A stretch of DNA of 32,000 nucleotides from Mycobacterium heidelbergense (GTDB lineage Bacteria; Actinomycetota; Actinomycetes; Mycobacteriales; Mycobacteriaceae): positions 3,353,512 through 3,385,511 of the forward strand of contig NZ_AP022615.1 of assembly GCF_010730745.1 (NCBI RefSeq). The letters run 5' to 3'. Within the stretch, counting starts at the first letter, position 1. Each line of letters opens with the position of its first letter. A program made the position numbers and the translations under genes. This document shows positions 21,169 to 24,969 of the stretch, piece by piece. A model generated the notes under the pieces. That model worked only from the letters and a program-made list of their open reading frames with translations. It did no database searches and had not been told where the DNA came from.

Positions 21169-21322
21169 GGCCGGCTGGTCGACCCGTCGAGTGTGCGTTC
21201 AGGGATTCGCGCGTGAGCCCTGGGCGGAAAATCCGCCGGATCGACGCCCTAGCGTCACACCGAAAGCCCACGCTTCACACTCAACGCAAGGGGCGCTATG
21301 CGAACGCACGGGGCACTAAGCG

Positions 21323-22768
21323 TCATGCGTCGATGATGGTCATTCCCACGCCGCTGGGGCTGTTCGAAATGTAGACCGGGTCCAGCGAGAAGAGGTAATT
21401 CCCGGTATTGAACGGGTCACTCGAGGACACGACATAGGGTGCGTCGGCGCCGGTGACGGTTTCCGAGTACAGCTCCTGACCGCCGCTGGTGTAGACCGTC
21501 AAAGTCGTTCCGGTCGGAACCGTATTGCCGGCCGAAACACCCGATATCAGGTTCGACGGGATGGCTCCGGTCAAGCCACCGGAATCGATGAACGCGCCGT
21601 TAGCGGTTTGCAGAGAACCGCCATCGATCTGTATCTCCAGGTTGGTCATCGGCGATCCGGTAAGGGTGGTAACGGGGGTCAGCGGGTTGGAGCCGAACTC
21701 CAGCAGACCCTGGGGTTCGTTGATGAGCACACCCTCGTCGAGGGTGCCCGGCAACGCCGAGGTCACCGGGGTGGAGATCGGATACCCGTCATTGGGCCCG
21801 ACGCCCAAAATGGCTGGCACCGAAGAGAGCTGGACAGGGTTTGTCACGCCATTGATCGTCTGGGTCGCTGAGGTGGCGACGTCGACGCTGGTCGGCGTCG
21901 TGACGATGCCATTCCCAAGGTTCACCGTCGTTTGGTACGTCTCGTAGTGGATCGTTTCATAGTTGACGCTGTCGCCGTAAGTGACGGCGCCCGACCCGGT
22001 GGGGTTGCCGAGGCTGGCTATGTTGACGTCTTGGCGTGGGAGCAGAAGACCGGTGGATCCGGTGTCAACTATCGCGCCCACGCTCGGTCCGCCGCCGACG
22101 GAGATGTTTACTATCGCGTTGCCGTATTGATCCACAGAGATGATGGTCTCGTTGGCCGCCAGAGGCGTGCTCACGCCGGTGGCCCCGACGACGCCCGACA
22201 GCAAGCCGGCGGCTCCTCCCGCCCCGCCAACACCGCCGGGCCCGCTGGCCCCGCCCGCGCCGCCGTTGCCCAACAACCATCCGCCGGCGCCGCCGGCGCC
22301 CCCGGCCGCTCCGCCGTAGGTGCTGTTGCCGCCGCTGCCACCGTTGCCGTACAACCATCCGCCGGCGCCACCCGGCGTCCCCACCCCTTGAGAATTGGTG
22401 TATCCGTTGGCGCCGTTGCCGATCAGCGGGCGCCCGGTCAGCTCCCGGACGGGCCCGCTGACCACGCCCGACAGCAGCTGCTGGATGTTGGTGGCCTCGG
22501 CGGCCGCATACGAATTCGCGTTCGTGGCCAGGGTGCCCGTGAACCAACCATGAAAGGCCGCGACCTGCCCGGCAAGCGCCTGATACTGCTGCCCGTACCC
22601 CGCGAATACCGCAGCCACGGCCGTCGAGACCTCGTCGGCGCCGGCGGCCACAAGCTGGGTGGTCGGAGTGGCAACCGCCGCGTGGGCCGCATCCAGTGCC
22701 GAGCCTATGCTTTCCAAATTCGTTGCTGCCGAAGACAACAGCTCAGGGGCTGCAACCAGAAGTGACAC
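21323..22768 (-). CDS. PE-PGRS family protein with C-terminal pepsin-like aspartic protease domain (PecA / PE_PGRS35-like)
   Basis: The N-terminal PE domain reads MSLLVAAPELLSSAATNLESIGSALDAAHAAVATPTTQLVAAGADEVS...YAAAEATN. A short GGAGG/GNGG linker follows. The C-terminal domain has two active-site-like motifs, IVDTGSTGLLLP and FIDSGGLTG. Confidence 0.85.
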   Translation of the reverse strand: MSLLVAAPELLSSAATNLESIGSALDAAHAAVATPTTQLVAAGADEVSTAVAAVFAGYGQQYQALAGQVAAFHGWFTGTLATNANSYAAAEATNIQQLLSGVVSGPVRELTGRPLIGNGANGYTNSQGVGTPGGAGGWLYGNGGSGGNSTYGGAAGGAGGAGGWLLGNGGAGGASGPGGVGGAGGAAGLLSGVVGATGVSTPLAANETIISVDQYGNAIVNISVGGGPSVGAIVDTGSTGLLLPRQDVNIASLGNPTGSGAVTYGDSVNYETIHYETYQTTVNLGNGIVTTPTSVDVATSATQTINGVTNPVQLSSVPAILGVGPNDGYPISTPVTSALPGTLDEGVLINEPQGLLEFGSNPLTPVTTLTGSPMTNLEIQIDGGSLQTANGAFIDSGGLTGAIPSNLISGVSAGNTVPTGTTLTVYTSGGQELYSETVTGADAPYVVSSSDPFNTGNYLFSLDPVYISNSPSGVGMTIIDA

Positions 22769-22941
22769 GCCAGCCTCCGCGGTCGTCTCGGCCTCATCTA
22801 ATGCCCCAGGTGCAGGGGCGTCCGTGAGGTCTTACCAGGTCACTGGCTGTTTGTCTAGAAAGTCTTACGTAGGAACATGCTCGGCGCGGCCGCGTGAGCG
22901 ATCCCTCCGGTTATCCACGTGCCAATTGGCAGCGAGTCTTT

Positions 22942-23023
22942 GCGGCAGATCCACGCGCCTCCTTGCGGCAGATCCACGCGCTACCTTGCGGCAGATCCAC
23001 GGGTAAGATGGCGGCAGATCCAC
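22942..23023. repeat. Four direct repeats with identical 13-bp core GCGGCAGATCCAC on an exact 23-bp period
   Basis: Cores lie at 22942-22954, 22965-22977, 22988-23000 and 23011-23023. The 10-bp inter-core segments diverge (GCGCCTCCTT, GCGCTACCTT, GGGTAAGATG). An ATCCACG half-copy lies at 22913-22919. The array ends 33 bp before ATG 23056. Confidence 0.9.
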
Positions 23024-23055
23024 ACGCGACGGTGGACCAGACGGCGGGAGCGTGG

Positions 23056-24339
23056 ATGCGAACCATACTTGGCCCGGCCTTGCCTAGACACGCCGAGGCC
23101 GCTGTGAACGCGGCACTGGAGGACACCCGGGTGGTGCTCGTCAACGGTGCCCGGCAAAGCGGCAAGAGCACTCTGGTTCGCCTCGTTGCAAAGGGCCGCG
23201 ACGCCGAATGGCGTGATCTCGATACCGCCTTGACCCGCCAGGCTGCGCTTGAGGATCCGGACGGCTTCGTCGACCAGCCCGGCCCGATGGTCATCGACGA
23301 GGTCCAACGAGCACCCGATCTGCTGCTGTCGATCAAGGCGCAAGTGGATGCAGACCCCACACCCGGGCGCTTCCTGCTGACGGGATCGGCGCGCGTGCTC
23401 GGCTTGCGATCCCTGCCCGACACTCTCGTGGGCCGAATGGAGACTATTGAGCTCTGGCCCTTCTCCCAGGGCGAGATCGACAGCGCCCCTGACGGATTCG
23501 TCGACGCCGTGTTCACCCAGGGCGACCTGGAGGCACCCTCCGCTTACGGGGGACTGCGCCACAGCTCTACGGTTTCACGAGCGGAGTACGCCGACCGACT
23601 TGTTCGCGGAGGCTTTCCTGAGGCAGTTGCGCGAACCAACGAGCGCCGACGCCGCAACTTTTTCAATTCCTACGTCGGCGATCTCATCGCGCGCGACGTG
23701 CAGCAATTGTCGGAGATCGAGCGAACAACCGAGATGCGCGCGCTTGTCCAGATGCTGGCCGCTCGATCGGGGCAGCTGCTGTCCATCGCCACATTGAGCA
23801 ACGAACTCGGACTCGGCGCCGCGACGGTGAAGAAGTATGTCGCACTGCTCGAAGAGGTCTTTCTCGTCAAGCGGATACCGGCGTGGTCCCGAAACATCAG
23901 CAGCAGAGCAACCACAACCCCCAAGCTCGCGTTCGTCGACTCCGGCATCGCGGCACACCAGATCGGCGCGGACGCCCGCAGCATCCTGCGGCCTACCGGT
24001 CAGTTCGGGCCGCTCCTCGAGGGATTCGTTCTGATGGAACTGGCACGCCAGCTGACCTGGTGCGAGGAAGAAGTTGCGCTCTTCCACTACCGAACCAGGG
24101 ATCAAGTTGAGGTCGATGCCGTACTCGAAAATCGGCGGGGCGACGTCGTGGGCATCGAGGTCAAAGCAGCATCTACGGTCGGGCCCAACGACTTCCGCGG
24201 ACTACGCCACCTCGCCCAGCGGATCGGCGACGATTTTCGTGCCGGCATCGTCATGCATACCGGACCGCAAACCCTGTCCTTTGGGCCAAAGATGCTCGCC
24301 GTACCGGTGAGTGCCCTGTGGCTGACAGCCACGGCCTGA
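23056..24339 (+). CDS. AAA-type ATPase with DUF4143-like C-terminal region
   Basis: Walker A is VNGARQSGKST and Walker B is MVIDEVQRAPDLL. The length (427 aa) and organisation are typical of AAA_14/DUF4143 ATP-binding proteins. Start placed at ATG 23056, because the 22894-23055 extension would translate the repeat array. Confidence 0.75.
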   Translation: MRTILGPALPRHAEAAVNAALEDTRVVLVNGARQSGKSTLVRLVAKGRDAEWRDLDTALTRQAALEDPDGFVDQPGPMVIDEVQRAPDLLLSIKAQVDADPTPGRFLLTGSARVLGLRSLPDTLVGRMETIELWPFSQGEIDSAPDGFVDAVFTQGDLEAPSAYGGLRHSSTVSRAEYADRLVRGGFPEAVARTNERRRRNFFNSYVGDLIARDVQQLSEIERTTEMRALVQMLAARSGQLLSIATLSNELGLGAATVKKYVALLEEVFLVKRIPAWSRNISSRATTTPKLAFVDSGIAAHQIGADARSILRPTGQFGPLLEGFVLMELARQLTWCEEEVALFHYRTRDQVEVDAVLENRRGDVVGIEVKAASTVGPNDFRGLRHLAQRIGDDFRAGIVMHTGPQTLSFGPKMLAVPVSALWLTATA

Positions 24340-24354
24340 CGGTGTCAACCGGCT

Positions 24355-24969
24355 TTATGCCCGCCTGGGCCGCGGGCGATCGCCGGCGAAGCCACGCACC
24401 ACGTGCGCGCGCACGAACTCGGCGACGACCTCGGGATCGTCCATGTCCAATGTCGACGACGGCGTGCTGAAGAGCGAAAACAGTATGCGCGCAAACCATT
24501 CGCCGGCGGCCCGCACGTCGAGGTCCTTGCGGACCTCACCGGTGAGCTTGGCGGCGGAGAGGTGGGGCGCGAAGAAGTCGACGCATTCGCGCAGCAGCAC
24601 GCCGGCGTCCTTGGTCAGCAGCAGGCTGATCGCGTCTTCGTCGAAGTATTTCCCGGACGCGATGGCGCGCCGCGCCTGCGTCACGAATACCGCTGCGTGG
24701 CTGAGCTTTTCCTCCAAGGACCCGCCCCGGTCCATCGCTTGGGACATCTCGCGGTAGAACTGCTCGGACGCGTGCTCGGCGCAGGCCTCGAGAACGGCAC
24801 CCTTGTCGCTGAAGTACTCGTAGACCGTGCTCCGGGATACGTTGGCGGTCCTAGCGATATCGACGATCGTCGTCTTCTGCAGCCCTTCTCGGCGGAAGCA
24901 CGCGTACGCGGACTCGACGATCAGCTCGCGGGTATCGGTCGCCTGGGTCAACGCGGAAGCCTGGGTCAT
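24355..24969 (-). CDS. TetR family transcriptional regulator (last gene of the P450-hydratase-aldolase operon)
   Basis: N-terminal HTH is GLQKTTIVDIARTANVSRSTVYEYFSDKGAV. 204 aa. The start ATG 24969 lies 9 nt after the upstream stop (24979-24981). Confidence 0.9.
   Translation of the reverse strand: MTQASALTQATDTRELIVESAYACFRREGLQKTTIVDIARTANVSRSTVYEYFSDKGAVLEACAEHASEQFYREMSQAMDRGGSLEEKLSHAAVFVTQARRAIASGKYFDEDAISLLLTKDAGVLLRECVDFFAPHLSAAKLTGEVRKDLDVRAAGEWFARILFSLFSTPSSTLDMDDPEVVAEFVRAHVVRGFAGDRPRPRRA

What the first reader, a model, noticed from the sequence alone, without database searches (positions are those of the whole stretch)
22913..23023. Iteron-like array: four identical 13-bp cores on an exact 23-bp period directly upstream of the DUF4143 ATPase
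**Seen in sequence.** GCGGCAGATCCAC occurs four times at 22942, 22965, 22988 and 23011, so the spacing is exactly 23 bp each time. The 10-bp linkers are divergent, and an upstream half-copy ATCCACG lies at 22913. The array ends 33 bp before the ATPase ATG and 174 bp from the divergent PE-PGRS start.

**Inference.** Conserved cores with drifting linkers suggest selection on a binding site, not a recent slippage VNTR. Same-orientation sites roughly two helical turns apart are the pattern of iterons or cooperative transcription-factor or partition-protein arrays. I do not recognise this motif.
Basis: seen in the sequence. Interest (0 to 1): 0.65.

Follow-up and report, generated by a model that had tools for sequence, protein, structure and literature searches.

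The report
Conserved operator-like repeat array of ATPase-nuclease gene
The four 23-bp-spaced repeats are real and are not a drifting VNTR: the same kind of array sits in front of nearly every relative of this uncharacterised ATPase-nuclease gene, a common candidate phage-defence gene, in many bacterial genera, so it is very probably the protein-binding control site of that gene.

Summary
Four exact GCGGCAGATCCAC cores lie 23 bp apart at 22942-23023 in Mycobacterium malmoense, directly upstream of an AAA_14/DUF4143 gene.

The array is not a neutral VNTR.
- It travels with the ATPase gene through unrelated gene neighbourhoods.
- 79 of 80 orthologous loci, from Mycolicibacter and Nocardia to Streptosporangiales, have a 23-bp periodicity upstream. 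Control segments show it in 4 of 315 cases.
- 257 of 280 core-to-core spacings are exactly 23 bp.
- Cores stay 94% identical where linkers (54%) and synonymous codon positions (54%) have decayed.
- The core sequence differs between lineages, and between two paralogues in the same genome.
- More distant plasmid-borne relatives (31-46% identity) carry 22- or 23-bp arrays with other cores.

The array overlaps a conserved TANNNT -10-like element. The protein models confidently as AAA+ plus winged helix plus PD-(D/E)XK nuclease, and it matches the PADLOC candidate defence family PDC-S01.

My best reading, which is inferred and not shown, is that the ATPase binds its own array cooperatively and autoregulates, probably by repression.

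Copy number does change slowly: a second M. malmoense lineage has three units. That lineage also has an in-frame stop codon, which rules out translation of the repeats. I found no description of this element in the searchable literature.

The parts
22921..22941 (+). Left edge of the conserved module: about 20 nt upstream of the first unit that are still alignable with the closest foreign locus.
   Evidence: blastn of window against L010 aligns 22921-24340 only. The flanks are unrelated.
22942..22964 (+). Repeat unit 1: core GCGGCAGATCCAC plus linker GCGCCTCCTT. This unit is missing in the second M. malmoense lineage.
22965..22987 (+). Repeat unit 2: core plus linker GCGCTACCTT. The linker contains a TANNNT-like hexamer, TACCTT, at 22982-22987, and is conserved by position in Mycolicibacter and metagenome relatives.
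22988..23010 (+). Repeat unit 3: core plus linker GGGTAAGATG.
23004..23009 (+). TAAGAT, the probable -10 promoter hexamer, in the penultimate linker.
   Evidence: A TANNNT hexamer is present in the penultimate linker of 10 of 11 Mycobacteriales-type arrays: TAAGAT, TATGAT, TATAGT, TAAGGT, TAGCAT, TAGGAT, TACGAT, TAGATT. The generic sigma-70 scan found nothing, so this is a sequence inference. No transcription start site has been mapped.
23011..23033 (+). Repeat unit 4: core at 23011-23023, followed by leader sequence. It lies across the predicted transcription start.
23046..23050 (+). GGGAG, a Shine-Dalgarno-like sequence 5 nt before the ATG.
   Evidence: Read from the sequence. It is conserved in L010, L011, L020, L021 and L047.
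23056..24339 (+). AAA_14/DUF4143 ATPase gene, 427 aa, with the domain order AAA+, lid, winged helix, PD-(D/E)XK. It matches PADLOC PDC-S01.
   Evidence: Pfam: AAA_14 E 2e-22, DUF4143 E 1e-43. PADLOC: PDC-S01 E 1.6e-176. AlphaFold2 model: pLDDT 91.6, pTM 0.92.
23725..23934 (+). Segment coding for the winged helix-turn-helix (residues 224-293), the candidate reader of the repeat cores.
   Evidence: The model shows H224-236, H244-251, H255-267 and a wing at E271-274/E290-293. Close homologues pass the Pfam HTH_IclR gathering score at the equivalent residues.
24004..24258 (+). Segment coding for the PD-(D/E)XK nuclease-like core (residues 317-401). D354 and K370 are invariant and E368 is nearly invariant.
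   Evidence: DUF4143 is listed in the PD-(D/E)XK superfamily (PMC3424549).

Best explanation
**What it is.** The array is the cis-acting control region of a self-contained two-part module: the repeat array with its promoter, and the ATPase-nuclease gene. This module has been carried into many different chromosomal and plasmid contexts.

**Anatomy.** Each 23-bp unit carries a core of about 16 bp (GCGRC-N7-YCA; in M. malmoense GCGGCAGATCCACGCG) and a free linker of about 7 bp.

**Proposed mechanism.**
- The AAA+/winged-helix/PD-(D/E)XK protein encoded immediately downstream binds one core per subunit through its winged helix.
- Subunits contact each other head to tail through the AAA+ domains, which explains why the 23-bp register is kept so strictly.
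- In M. malmoense units 2-4 cover the -35 region, the spacer and the transcription start around the TAAGAT -10 hexamer. An occupied array would therefore shut off the gene's own promoter. This negative autoregulation would hold a potentially dangerous nuclease at a low, buffered level.

**Shown.** The array exists, it is linked to the gene, it is under purifying selection, its phase is strict, it overlaps a conserved -10-like element, the protein has a DNA-binding fold, and the cores are module-specific.

**Inferred.** That the binder is the ATPase itself, that binding is cooperative, and that the effect is repression and not activation.
For: **Linkage to the gene.**
- ATPase orthologues lie in unrelated neighbourhoods, yet each has the array. 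Homology to the nearest foreign locus runs only from 22921 to the stop codon.
- In 79 of 80 orthologous loci from other species the best autocorrelation lag upstream is 23, against 4 of 315 control segments.
- All 4 members of a second subfamily that were not selected by their arrays also have lag 23.
- 9 of 11 plasmid-borne relatives at 31-46% identity have lag 22 or 23.
- Of 47 metagenomic arrays with at least 3 units, 34 have the ATPase directly downstream and 3 run off the contig. At least 4 of the 10 exceptions are deletion derivatives.

**Selection.**
- Pooled core identity is 0.944, against 0.536 for linkers and 0.539 for third codon positions at identical amino acids. Window against L028: cores 39/39 identical, linkers 0.20, third positions 0.42.
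- Linkers remain position-specific between species.

**Geometry.** 257 of 280 spacings are exactly 23 bp.

**Promoter overlap.**
- A TANNNT hexamer sits in the penultimate linker in 10 of 11 Mycobacteriales-type arrays.
- In Streptosporangiales and in the second subfamily, the array abuts a TGn-CATNNT or TAGGAT hexamer that lies 6-7 nt before the start codon, a leaderless-type layout.

**The binder is module-specific.**
- Cores differ within one genus, Nocardia: GCGGCAGATCAACC, GCGACGAATCAACC, GCGACCAAATTGCC, GCGACGAATCCACC.
- Two paralogues in one genome have different cores. Planomonospora corallina: GCGACCA.CATGCCAG against CGGCAGATCGCCC. Nonomuraea cypriaca: GCGACCAAACCACCACG against TCGGCAGATTCACGGGC.

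**The protein can read DNA.** The model is confident and contains a canonical winged helix. Close homologues pass the HTH_IclR threshold. The fold resembles AAA+-plus-winged-helix proteins such as RuvB, the archaeal ATPases 2qen and 2fna, and ORC/Cdc6.
Against: - No binding, footprint, transcription start or expression datum exists for any member.
- Covariation between protein and core is inconclusive. Raw mutual information puts residue 259, in the predicted recognition helix, first (summed MI 7.62 against 5.61 for the next column). It is also the most variable column.
- A test on 38 phylogenetically independent pairs did not single out the winged helix. The top columns were 65, 59 and 305.
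- The same half-core, GCGGCAGATC, occurs with several different recognition-helix sequences.
- In Streptosporangiales-type loci the last core lies at about -45 to -30. That position would suit an activator as well as a repressor.
- I could not scan a whole genome for further copies of the core, so a small regulon is not excluded.
Confidence: 0.5

Rival explanations
1. The array is a non-transcriptional assembly or storage platform for the ATPase-nuclease. On this reading it is an iteron- or ORB-like nucleation site on which an AAA+ filament or spiral forms. It could park the nuclease in an inactive state, act as a sensor that is titrated by invading DNA, or mark a site of DNA processing. Any effect on transcription would be secondary.
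For: - The period is strict at 23 bp in Actinobacteria and 22 bp in Proteobacteria over 3 to 8 units in nearly all loci. That is about 2.2 helical turns per unit, so successive subunits would spiral round the DNA.
- The AAA+-plus-winged-helix architecture is shared with ORC/Cdc6 and RuvB.
- The nuclease motif is intact: D354 and K370 are invariant and E368 is nearly invariant.
- Three independent deletions in a freshwater population start within about 30 nt of the array end.
Against: - The array always sits at the promoter and start of the gene and never elsewhere in the module. That placement is what an operator needs and what a mere platform does not.
- The clustering of deletion breakpoints is subject to ascertainment, because the loci were found by searching for arrays. 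One junction shows only 1-3 nt of microhomology.
- There is no AT-rich unwinding element or any other origin feature in the 135-nt non-coding part of the module.
Confidence: 0.2
2. The array is an operator for a different, host-encoded regulator, such as a response regulator or a global factor. On this reading the ATPase gene is only one of that regulator's targets.
For: - Direct repeats abutting the -35 or -10 region are typical of OmpR-, SARP- and GlnR-type activators.
- I could not scan a complete genome for further sites.
- The covariation tests did not tie the cores to the ATPase winged helix.
Against: - The only gene that always accompanies the array is the ATPase.
- Cores differ between species of one genus, and between two paralogues inside one genome. 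A single host factor with a regulon could not follow such changes.
- The period is 23 bp, not the 11 or 22 bp of OmpR- and SARP-type sites.
- No further copy with up to 2 mismatches lies in the 32-kb window.
Confidence: 0.13
3. The array is a neutral intergenic VNTR produced by replication slippage and has no function.
For: - Copy number differs by exactly one unit between two M. malmoense lineages, 4 against 3.
- Copy number ranges from 3 to 8 in nearly all loci across the family.
- One array, in L221, has four units that are identical including their linkers, which indicates a recent amplification.
Against: - The array is conserved across orders with the same phase.
- Cores are far more conserved than linkers or synonymous sites.
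- Linkers are orthologous by position between species.
- Within each M. malmoense lineage, every contig read shows the same copy number.
Confidence: 0.02
4. The repeats are expressed, either as an N-terminal extension of the ATPase (the ORF from GTG 22894) or as a structured leader RNA.
For: An ORF in frame with the ATPase runs from 22894 through the array.
Against: - A 23-nt unit is not a multiple of three.
- The other M. malmoense lineage has one unit fewer and a TAG six codons before the ATG, yet its ATPase is 99% identical.
- Homologues are 413-437 aa long and align from window residues 1-11.
- In leaderless-type loci the whole array lies upstream of the -10 element.
- There is no Rfam match.
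- The RNA fold is weaker than that of shuffled sequence, z = +1.45.
Confidence: 0.01

Closest known systems
Plasmid iterons with their Rep initiators (R6K pi, RK2 TrfA, pPS10 RepA, F RepE). This comparison rests on my own knowledge.
   Same: - Same-orientation repeats with a conserved core and a free spacer.
- A period of about 22-23 bp.
- 3 to 8 copies.
- Placement next to the gene of the presumed binding protein.
- Core sequences that differ between related elements.
   Different: - The protein is an AAA+/winged-helix/PD-(D/E)XK fusion, not a WH1-WH2 Rep.
- The M. malmoense copy is chromosomal.
- There is no AT-rich unwinding element and no DnaA box.
- The array overlaps the promoter of the gene instead of forming an origin.
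Archaeal Orc1/Cdc6 with ORB elements, and bacterial DnaA with DnaA-box clusters.
   Same: An AAA+ ATPase followed by a winged helix, with repeated recognition elements beside its own gene. Foldseek recovers ORC/Cdc6 chains, including the DNA-bound 2qby_B.
   Different: - TM-scores to ORC/Cdc6 are only 0.21-0.25. The best global matches are the archaeal ATPases 2qen and 2fna (0.40-0.41).
- The protein has an extra C-terminal nuclease domain.
- The core is not a DnaA box: AGATCCACG matches TTGTCCACA or TTATCCACA at 6 of 9 positions. In other lineages the core changes to sequences unrelated to DnaA boxes.
Self-repressing operators of toxin-antitoxin and defence genes, and direct-repeat operators of actinobacterial regulators (SARP, GlnR or PhoP boxes). 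This comparison rests on my own knowledge.
   Same: Repeated sites that overlap or abut the -35/-10 region of the regulated promoter. In the self-repressing cases the regulator is encoded by the regulated transcript.
   Different: - The period is 23 bp, not 11 or 22 bp.
- There are up to eight units in nearly all loci.
- The presumed regulator is itself the ATPase-nuclease effector and not a small dedicated repressor.
PADLOC PDC-S01, the AAA_14-DUF4143 single-gene candidate defence system.
   Same: The protein matches the PDC-S01 profile over its full length, E 1.6e-176. It has the described architecture of an ATPase fused to a PD-(D/E)XK domain (PMC12988326).
   Different: - No cis element has been described for PDC-S01 in the papers I could search.
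- Anti-phage activity of PDC-S01 has not been validated.
- The M. malmoense copy lies among metabolic genes, not in an obvious defence island.
Mycobacterial MIRU/VNTR loci.
   Same: An intergenic tandem repeat in a Mycobacterium, with a one-unit difference in copy number between lineages.
   Different: It is conserved across orders, its cores are under purifying selection, and its linkers are not homogenised.

Membership tests
Iteron-controlled replicon | Tandem same-orientation repeats of about 17-22 bp on a phase of about 22 bp. | tested here: met
   Four units at exactly 23 bp. Across relatives, 257 of 280 spacings are 23 bp.
Iteron-controlled replicon | An adjacent gene for a Rep-type (WH1-WH2) initiator. 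| tested here: not met
   The adjacent gene is AAA_14 plus DUF4143. The model shows AAA+, one winged helix and a PD-(D/E)XK domain.
Iteron-controlled replicon | An AT-rich unwinding element, DnaA boxes, and location on an autonomous replicon. | tested here: not met
   - The non-coding part of the conserved module is 135 nt (22921-23055) and is filled by the array and the leader.
- The locus lies on the 5.3-Mb chromosome CP060015.1.
- There is no close relative on viral contigs.
Neutral VNTR / MIRU | Copy number varies among strains. | tested here: met
   One M. malmoense lineage has 4 units and the other has 3. Copy number is constant within each lineage, in 3 and 14 contigs respectively.
Neutral VNTR / MIRU | No sequence constraint: units evolve like neutral DNA and are not conserved beyond close relatives. 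| tested here: not met
   Core identity is 0.944, against 0.536 for linkers and 0.539 for synonymous third positions. Arrays are present in 79 of 80 orthologous loci of other genera.
PADLOC PDC-S01 (AAA_14-DUF4143) | Full-length match to the family profile. | tested here: met
   PDLC04790: E 1.6e-176, residues 8-423 aligned to profile positions 11-419 of 422.
PADLOC PDC-S01 (AAA_14-DUF4143) | A P-loop ATPase fused to a PD-(D/E)XK domain with catalytic residues. | tested here: met
   G36, K37 and T39 are invariant and S38 nearly invariant. D81 is invariant and E82 nearly invariant. D354 and K370 are invariant and E368 nearly invariant, in 96 sequences. The fold is shown.
PADLOC PDC-S01 (AAA_14-DUF4143) | Protection against phage. 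| not testable with these tools
Initiator-clade AAA+ (DnaA / Orc1-Cdc6) with repeated recognition boxes | An AAA+ domain followed by a DNA-binding winged helix or HTH. | tested here: met
   Model elements H224-236, H244-251, H255-267 and wing E271-274/E290-293. Homologues pass HTH_IclR at 24.6 bits against a cut-off of 22.
Initiator-clade AAA+ (DnaA / Orc1-Cdc6) with repeated recognition boxes | Structural membership of the initiator clade, including the initiator-specific motif. | tested here: inconclusive
   - ORC/Cdc6 chains are recovered only with TM 0.21-0.25. The best matches are the archaeal ATPases 2qen and 2fna, and RuvB.
- A helix pair at residues 58-71 between beta2 and beta3 lies where such a motif would be. 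I did not test this further.
Initiator-clade AAA+ (DnaA / Orc1-Cdc6) with repeated recognition boxes | For DnaA: the boxes match TTGTCCACA or TTATCCACA. | tested here: not met
   The M. malmoense core matches at 6 of 9 positions. Cores of other lineages, such as GCGACCATCCTGTCAGC and GCGTCTAATCCTTCAGC, do not resemble DnaA boxes.
Autoregulatory operator (regulator binds sites at its own promoter) | The sites overlap or abut the core promoter of the gene. | tested here: met
   - A TANNNT hexamer sits in the penultimate linker in 10 of 11 Mycobacteriales-type arrays.
- A -10-like hexamer lies directly after the last unit and 6-7 nt before the start codon in other lineages.
- This is sequence evidence only. 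No transcription start site has been mapped.
Autoregulatory operator (regulator binds sites at its own promoter) | The product of the gene binds the sites. | not testable with these tools
   - Linkage and paralogue-specific cores support it.
- Covariation is inconclusive.

The most novel reading that the evidence does not exclude
**The reading.** The 22-23-bp arrays are a general hallmark of a large clade of DUF4143/PDC-S01 ATPase-nucleases in Actinobacteria and Proteobacteria, and they are more than an operator.

- The protein would assemble on its own chromosomal 'iteron' as an ORC-like spiral, which holds the nuclease inactive.
- DNA entering the cell, or a change in nucleotide state, would redistribute the protein. 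That would both derepress the gene and release an active, sequence-guided nuclease.
- Each module would then be a self-addressed sensor-effector whose specificity co-evolves with its own array.
- The deletions that begin at the array edge would be scars of occasional self-cleavage.
Probability: 0.12. Interest if true: 0.85.

Novelty: new variant of a known kind. Interest (0 to 1): 0.7.

Why it matters
**The family is common but uncharacterised.** AAA_14-DUF4143 proteins (COG1373, PADLOC PDC-S01) are reported as the fourth most common candidate defence system in prokaryotes. No mechanism, ligand or validated activity is known for them (PMC12988326).

**What the array offers.** A conserved cognate DNA element with paralogue-specific cores gives this family its first concrete and testable molecular handle.
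- It provides a defined DNA ligand for binding, structural and ATPase assays.
- It predicts a regulatory circuit.
- It yields natural specificity variants for swap experiments.

**Practical consequences.**
- Such arrays should not be read as VNTR markers or as CRISPR-like or iteron origins.
- They can be used to recognise the true start codon of these genes.

Tried and rejected
- **Rfam scan of the window.** No match.
- **Generic sigma-70 promoter and terminator scan of 22500-23400.** Nothing found. The promoter argument therefore rests on the conserved TANNNT hexamer.
- **RNA fold of the array.** Less stable than shuffled sequence, z = +1.45. A structured RNA is rejected.
- **Inverted copy CGTGGAT across the ATG (pairs I2 and I10).** It is not conserved in L010, L044 or L047, which have CGCGGAT. 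I treat it as chance.
- **Upstream half-copy at 22913.** It is out of phase and outside the shared module, so I did not include it.
- **DnaA-box idea.** Rejected because the cores diverge between lineages.
- **PDB sequence search.** No relative found.
- **First AlphaFold2 model, from 41 close homologues.** Too weak to use, pLDDT 61. It was replaced by a 96-sequence model.
- **Mutual-information covariation and independent-pair covariation.** Neither gives a clean link between the winged helix and the core sequence. I report both as inconclusive.
- **Scan for the locus-specific core elsewhere in each 7-kb locus at 12 of 16 matches.** The threshold was too loose to be informative: 156 chance-level hits.
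- **Viral contigs.** No array and no relative of the ATPase. Phage records hold only 9 weak matches below 30% identity.
- **Metagenome hits with only two units.** 73 of 120 loci. Nearly all of them (70 of 73) have no ATPase downstream (53) or run off the contig (17), and those inspected were unrelated tandem duplications, so I set them aside.
- **Literature.** The 13-mer occurs in no paper. The search for 'AAA_14' returned only irrelevant papers.
Full report
**1. The observation**

- The window comes from Mycobacterium malmoense. The ATPase protein is identical to one encoded in assembly GCA_025821945.1 and 99% identical to a protein named M. malmoense.
- GCGGCAGATCCAC occurs four times, at 22942, 22965, 22988 and 23011. 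No other copy exists in 32 kb with up to two mismatches. With three mismatches the count is at chance level.
- TRF reports a period-23 array at 22940-23027 with the highest score in the window.
- Lag-23 identity of the segment is 0.83, against a window mean of 0.27.
- The cores are identical. The linkers are 47% identical pairwise.
- The stated distances to the ATPase ATG (23056) and to the divergent PE-PGRS start (22768) are correct.

**2. The array is not translated and not an RNA**

- An ORF from GTG 22894 runs through the repeats in frame with the ATPase.
- A second M. malmoense lineage is represented by 14 contigs, including the complete chromosome CP060015.1. It has exactly one unit fewer, which shifts the frame. 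It also has a TAG six codons before the ATG. Its ATPase is nevertheless 99% identical.
- Homologues are 413-437 aa long and align from residues 1-11.
- Rfam finds nothing.
- The region folds less well than shuffled sequence.

**3. The array travels with the gene**

- ATPase orthologues lie in unrelated neighbourhoods. I examined a metagenome contig, Mycolicibacter, Nocardia uniformis, [Mycobacterium] fortunisiensis, Streptosporangium and Nonomuraea. Each has a 23-bp-period array directly before the start codon.
- Against the nearest foreign locus, homology runs from 22921 to the stop codon and no further. The unit of inheritance is therefore array plus leader plus ORF.
- An unbiased protein-based scan of one genome per species found 296 relatives. 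In the best 80 loci (68-91% identity), the strongest autocorrelation lag in the 200 nt upstream is 23 in 79 of them. These loci span Mycolicibacter, Nocardia, Aldersonia, nine genera of Streptosporangiales and several MAG lineages. In control segments of the same loci, lag 23 wins in 4 of 315 cases.
- Loci carry 3 to 8 units, most often 4 or 5; one locus has 2 and one has 11.
- 257 of 280 spacings between successive cores are exactly 23 bp.

**4. Anatomy of the unit**

- Within loci, unit positions 1-5 (GCGRC) and 13-15 ((C/T)CA) are conserved. Positions 17-23 are at random-level identity of 0.30-0.41.
- Positions 1, 2, 3 and 5 were used to phase the units, so their conservation is partly circular. 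Positions 13-15 were not used.
- The two conserved blocks are about one helical turn apart. The unit is not palindromic. This fits one asymmetric protein subunit per unit.

**5. Selection, not homogenisation**

- Nine loci share the M. malmoense-type core. Among them, pooled core identity is 0.944, linker identity is 0.536, and identity of third codon positions at identical amino acids in the ATPase gene is 0.539.
- The extreme pair is the window against [M.] fortunisiensis: cores 39/39 identical, linkers 0.20, third positions 0.42.
- Linkers are orthologous by position. The second-to-last linker reads GCGCTACC(T/A)T and the penultimate reads GCGTA(A/T)GAT in M. malmoense, Mycolicibacter and a metagenome relative.
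- Slippage or gene conversion would have homogenised the linkers as well. The identical cores are therefore maintained by purifying selection.
- Slippage does occur. M. malmoense lineage B has lost unit 1, while relatives have 4 or 5 units. One Nonomuraea array has four units that are identical including their linkers.

**6. Relation to the promoter**

- In 10 of 11 Mycobacteriales-type arrays, a TANNNT hexamer occupies the penultimate linker. In the window it is TAAGAT at 23004-23009. The last unit then lies across the expected transcription start and is followed by GGGAG and the ATG.
- In Streptosporangiales and in the second subfamily, the last unit is followed by a -10-like hexamer (TGn-CATNNT, TAGGAT or TATGAT), then 6-7 nt, then the start codon. 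This is the layout of leaderless transcripts.
- In that layout the whole array lies upstream of the transcript, which again excludes an RNA role.
- No transcription start site is mapped. This paragraph is sequence inference.

**7. The protein**

- Pfam finds AAA_14 and DUF4143.
- PADLOC assigns the protein to PDC-S01, E 1.6e-176. PDC-S01 is a candidate single-gene defence system. It is reported as very common but not validated, and is described as an ATPase fused to a PD-(D/E)XK domain (PMC12988326; PMC3424549).
- A first model from close homologues was poor. After I added a second subfamily to the alignment, AlphaFold2 gave pLDDT 91.6 and pTM 0.92.
- The model shows four parts:
  - an AAA+ core;
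  - a helical lid;
  - a canonical winged helix (H224-236, H244-251, H255-267, wing E271-274/E290-293);
  - a PD-(D/E)XK fold with invariant D354 and K370 and nearly invariant E368.
- Close homologues pass the HTH_IclR gathering score at the winged helix.
- Foldseek finds AAA+-plus-winged-helix proteins. The archaeal ATPases 2qen and 2fna score TM 0.40-0.41. RuvB, STAND NTPases and ORC/Cdc6 score lower. No solved structure is a close match.

**8. Who binds?**

The ATPase is the only constant neighbour of the array. Two further observations argue for a module-specific binder.
- Cores differ between species of one genus, with four Nocardia types.
- Two genomes carry paralogues from the two subfamilies, and each paralogue has an array of the same geometry with a different core:
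  - Planomonospora corallina has GCGACCA.CATGCCAG and CGGCAGATCGCCC;
  - Nonomuraea cypriaca has GCGACCAAACCACCACG and TCGGCAGATTCACGGGC.

A single host regulator could not serve both arrays.

Direct covariation evidence is weak.
- Residue 259, in the predicted recognition helix, has the highest mutual information with the core. It is also the most variable column.
- A test on 38 independent sister pairs did not single out the winged helix.

I therefore hold the identity of the binder as inferred.

**9. Breadth**

- 47 of these loci have at least three in-phase units. Of those, 34 have a DUF4143 ATPase directly downstream, at 54-93% identity in global alignment for the complete ones. Three run off the contig and 10 lack the ATPase.
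- At least four of the ten are deletion derivatives of a module that is seen intact in the same population.
- All four members of the second subfamily that were not chosen by their arrays have 23-bp arrays.
- 398 plasmid records carry homologues. Of 11 that I examined:
  - four from alpha-, beta- and gamma-Proteobacteria have TTGGACG cores on a 22-bp period;
  - two others have 22-bp repeats, one has lag 11, and one is weak;
  - a Sulfitobacter relative (34%) and a Mycobacterium riyadhense plasmid relative (31%) have 23-bp arrays;
  - the most distant, Thermus (28%) and Moraxella (26%), show none.
- The Sulfitobacter array lies just after repC, so it might belong to the plasmid's own maintenance region.
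- No relative or array was found on viral contigs.

**10. Verdict**

- The array is a selected, phase-locked protein-binding element that forms one module with the ATPase-nuclease gene.
- The most likely mechanism is cooperative binding by the ATPase itself with autoregulation, probably repression (confidence about 0.5).
- An additional or alternative role as an assembly platform for the ATPase is the main rival.
- I found no description of the element in the searchable literature.
- It is a new variant of a known kind, namely iteron-like or operator arrays. It is of more than local interest because it gives a handle on a very common uncharacterised family.

Noticed in passing
L112/L136 (intact) versus L139/L159, L110/L147 and L169 (freshwater metagenome contigs): 'Orphan' arrays. 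There are three independent deletions that keep the array and remove the ATPase.
- L139 lacks L112 1404-2640. The ORF is 1417-2676, so its last 36 nt survive.
- L110 lacks L112 1413-5303.
- L169 breaks inside unit 4.

All left breakpoints lie within about 30 nt of the array end. One junction has only 1-3 nt of microhomology. Ascertainment bias applies, because the loci were found by their arrays.
   Followed up: partly
L226, L228, L229, L230 (plasmids of Rhodoferax, Agrobacterium, Ensifer, Marinobacter): Proteobacterial relatives of the ATPase (42-46% identity) carry 3-4 direct repeats with core TTGGACG on a 22-bp period directly before the start codon. The period is 22 bp here, against 23 bp in Actinobacteria.
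   Followed up: partly
L221 1352-1490 (Nonomuraea cypriaca): Four consecutive units are identical over all 23 nt, including the linker (TCGGCAGATTCACGGGCAACCGT). This indicates a recent unit amplification. Arrays can therefore expand by slippage even though their cores are under selection.
   Followed up: no
L127 120-1501 (metagenome contig): A four-unit array starts 13 nt after the stop codon of a DUF4143 ATPase, and no ATPase follows it. It may be the remnant of a tandem second module.
   Followed up: no
L013/L014/L021 950-1412 (Nocardia uniformis): A fragment matching residues 131-190 of the ATPase lies about 2 kb upstream of the intact module. It looks like a decayed second copy.
   Followed up: no
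window 21323-22768 (- strand): The divergent neighbour is a PE-PGRS protein with a C-terminal aspartyl-peptidase-like domain (PF20729). It is 481 aa in this lineage and 491 aa in the other M. malmoense lineage, so the PGRS region is length-polymorphic.
   Followed up: no
window 21283-21322: A 20-bp unit, AACGCAAGGGGCACTAAGCG, is present twice in tandem (85% match). It lies between the proline dehydrogenase gene and the 3' end of the PE-PGRS gene.
   Followed up: no
window 23224-23268 (ATPase residues 57-71): Residues 57, 59, 65 and 66 appear near the top of both covariation lists. They lie in the helix pair between strands beta2 and beta3 of the AAA+ core, which is the position of the DNA-contacting initiator-specific motif in ORC/DnaA-type ATPases.
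   Followed up: no
window 24355-24969 (- strand) and L223/L224, L221: A TetR-family gene lies convergent just downstream of the ATPase in M. malmoense. The same is true in Streptomyces gardneri and Nonomuraea cypriaca, although the surrounding genes differ. This may be coincidence.
   Followed up: no
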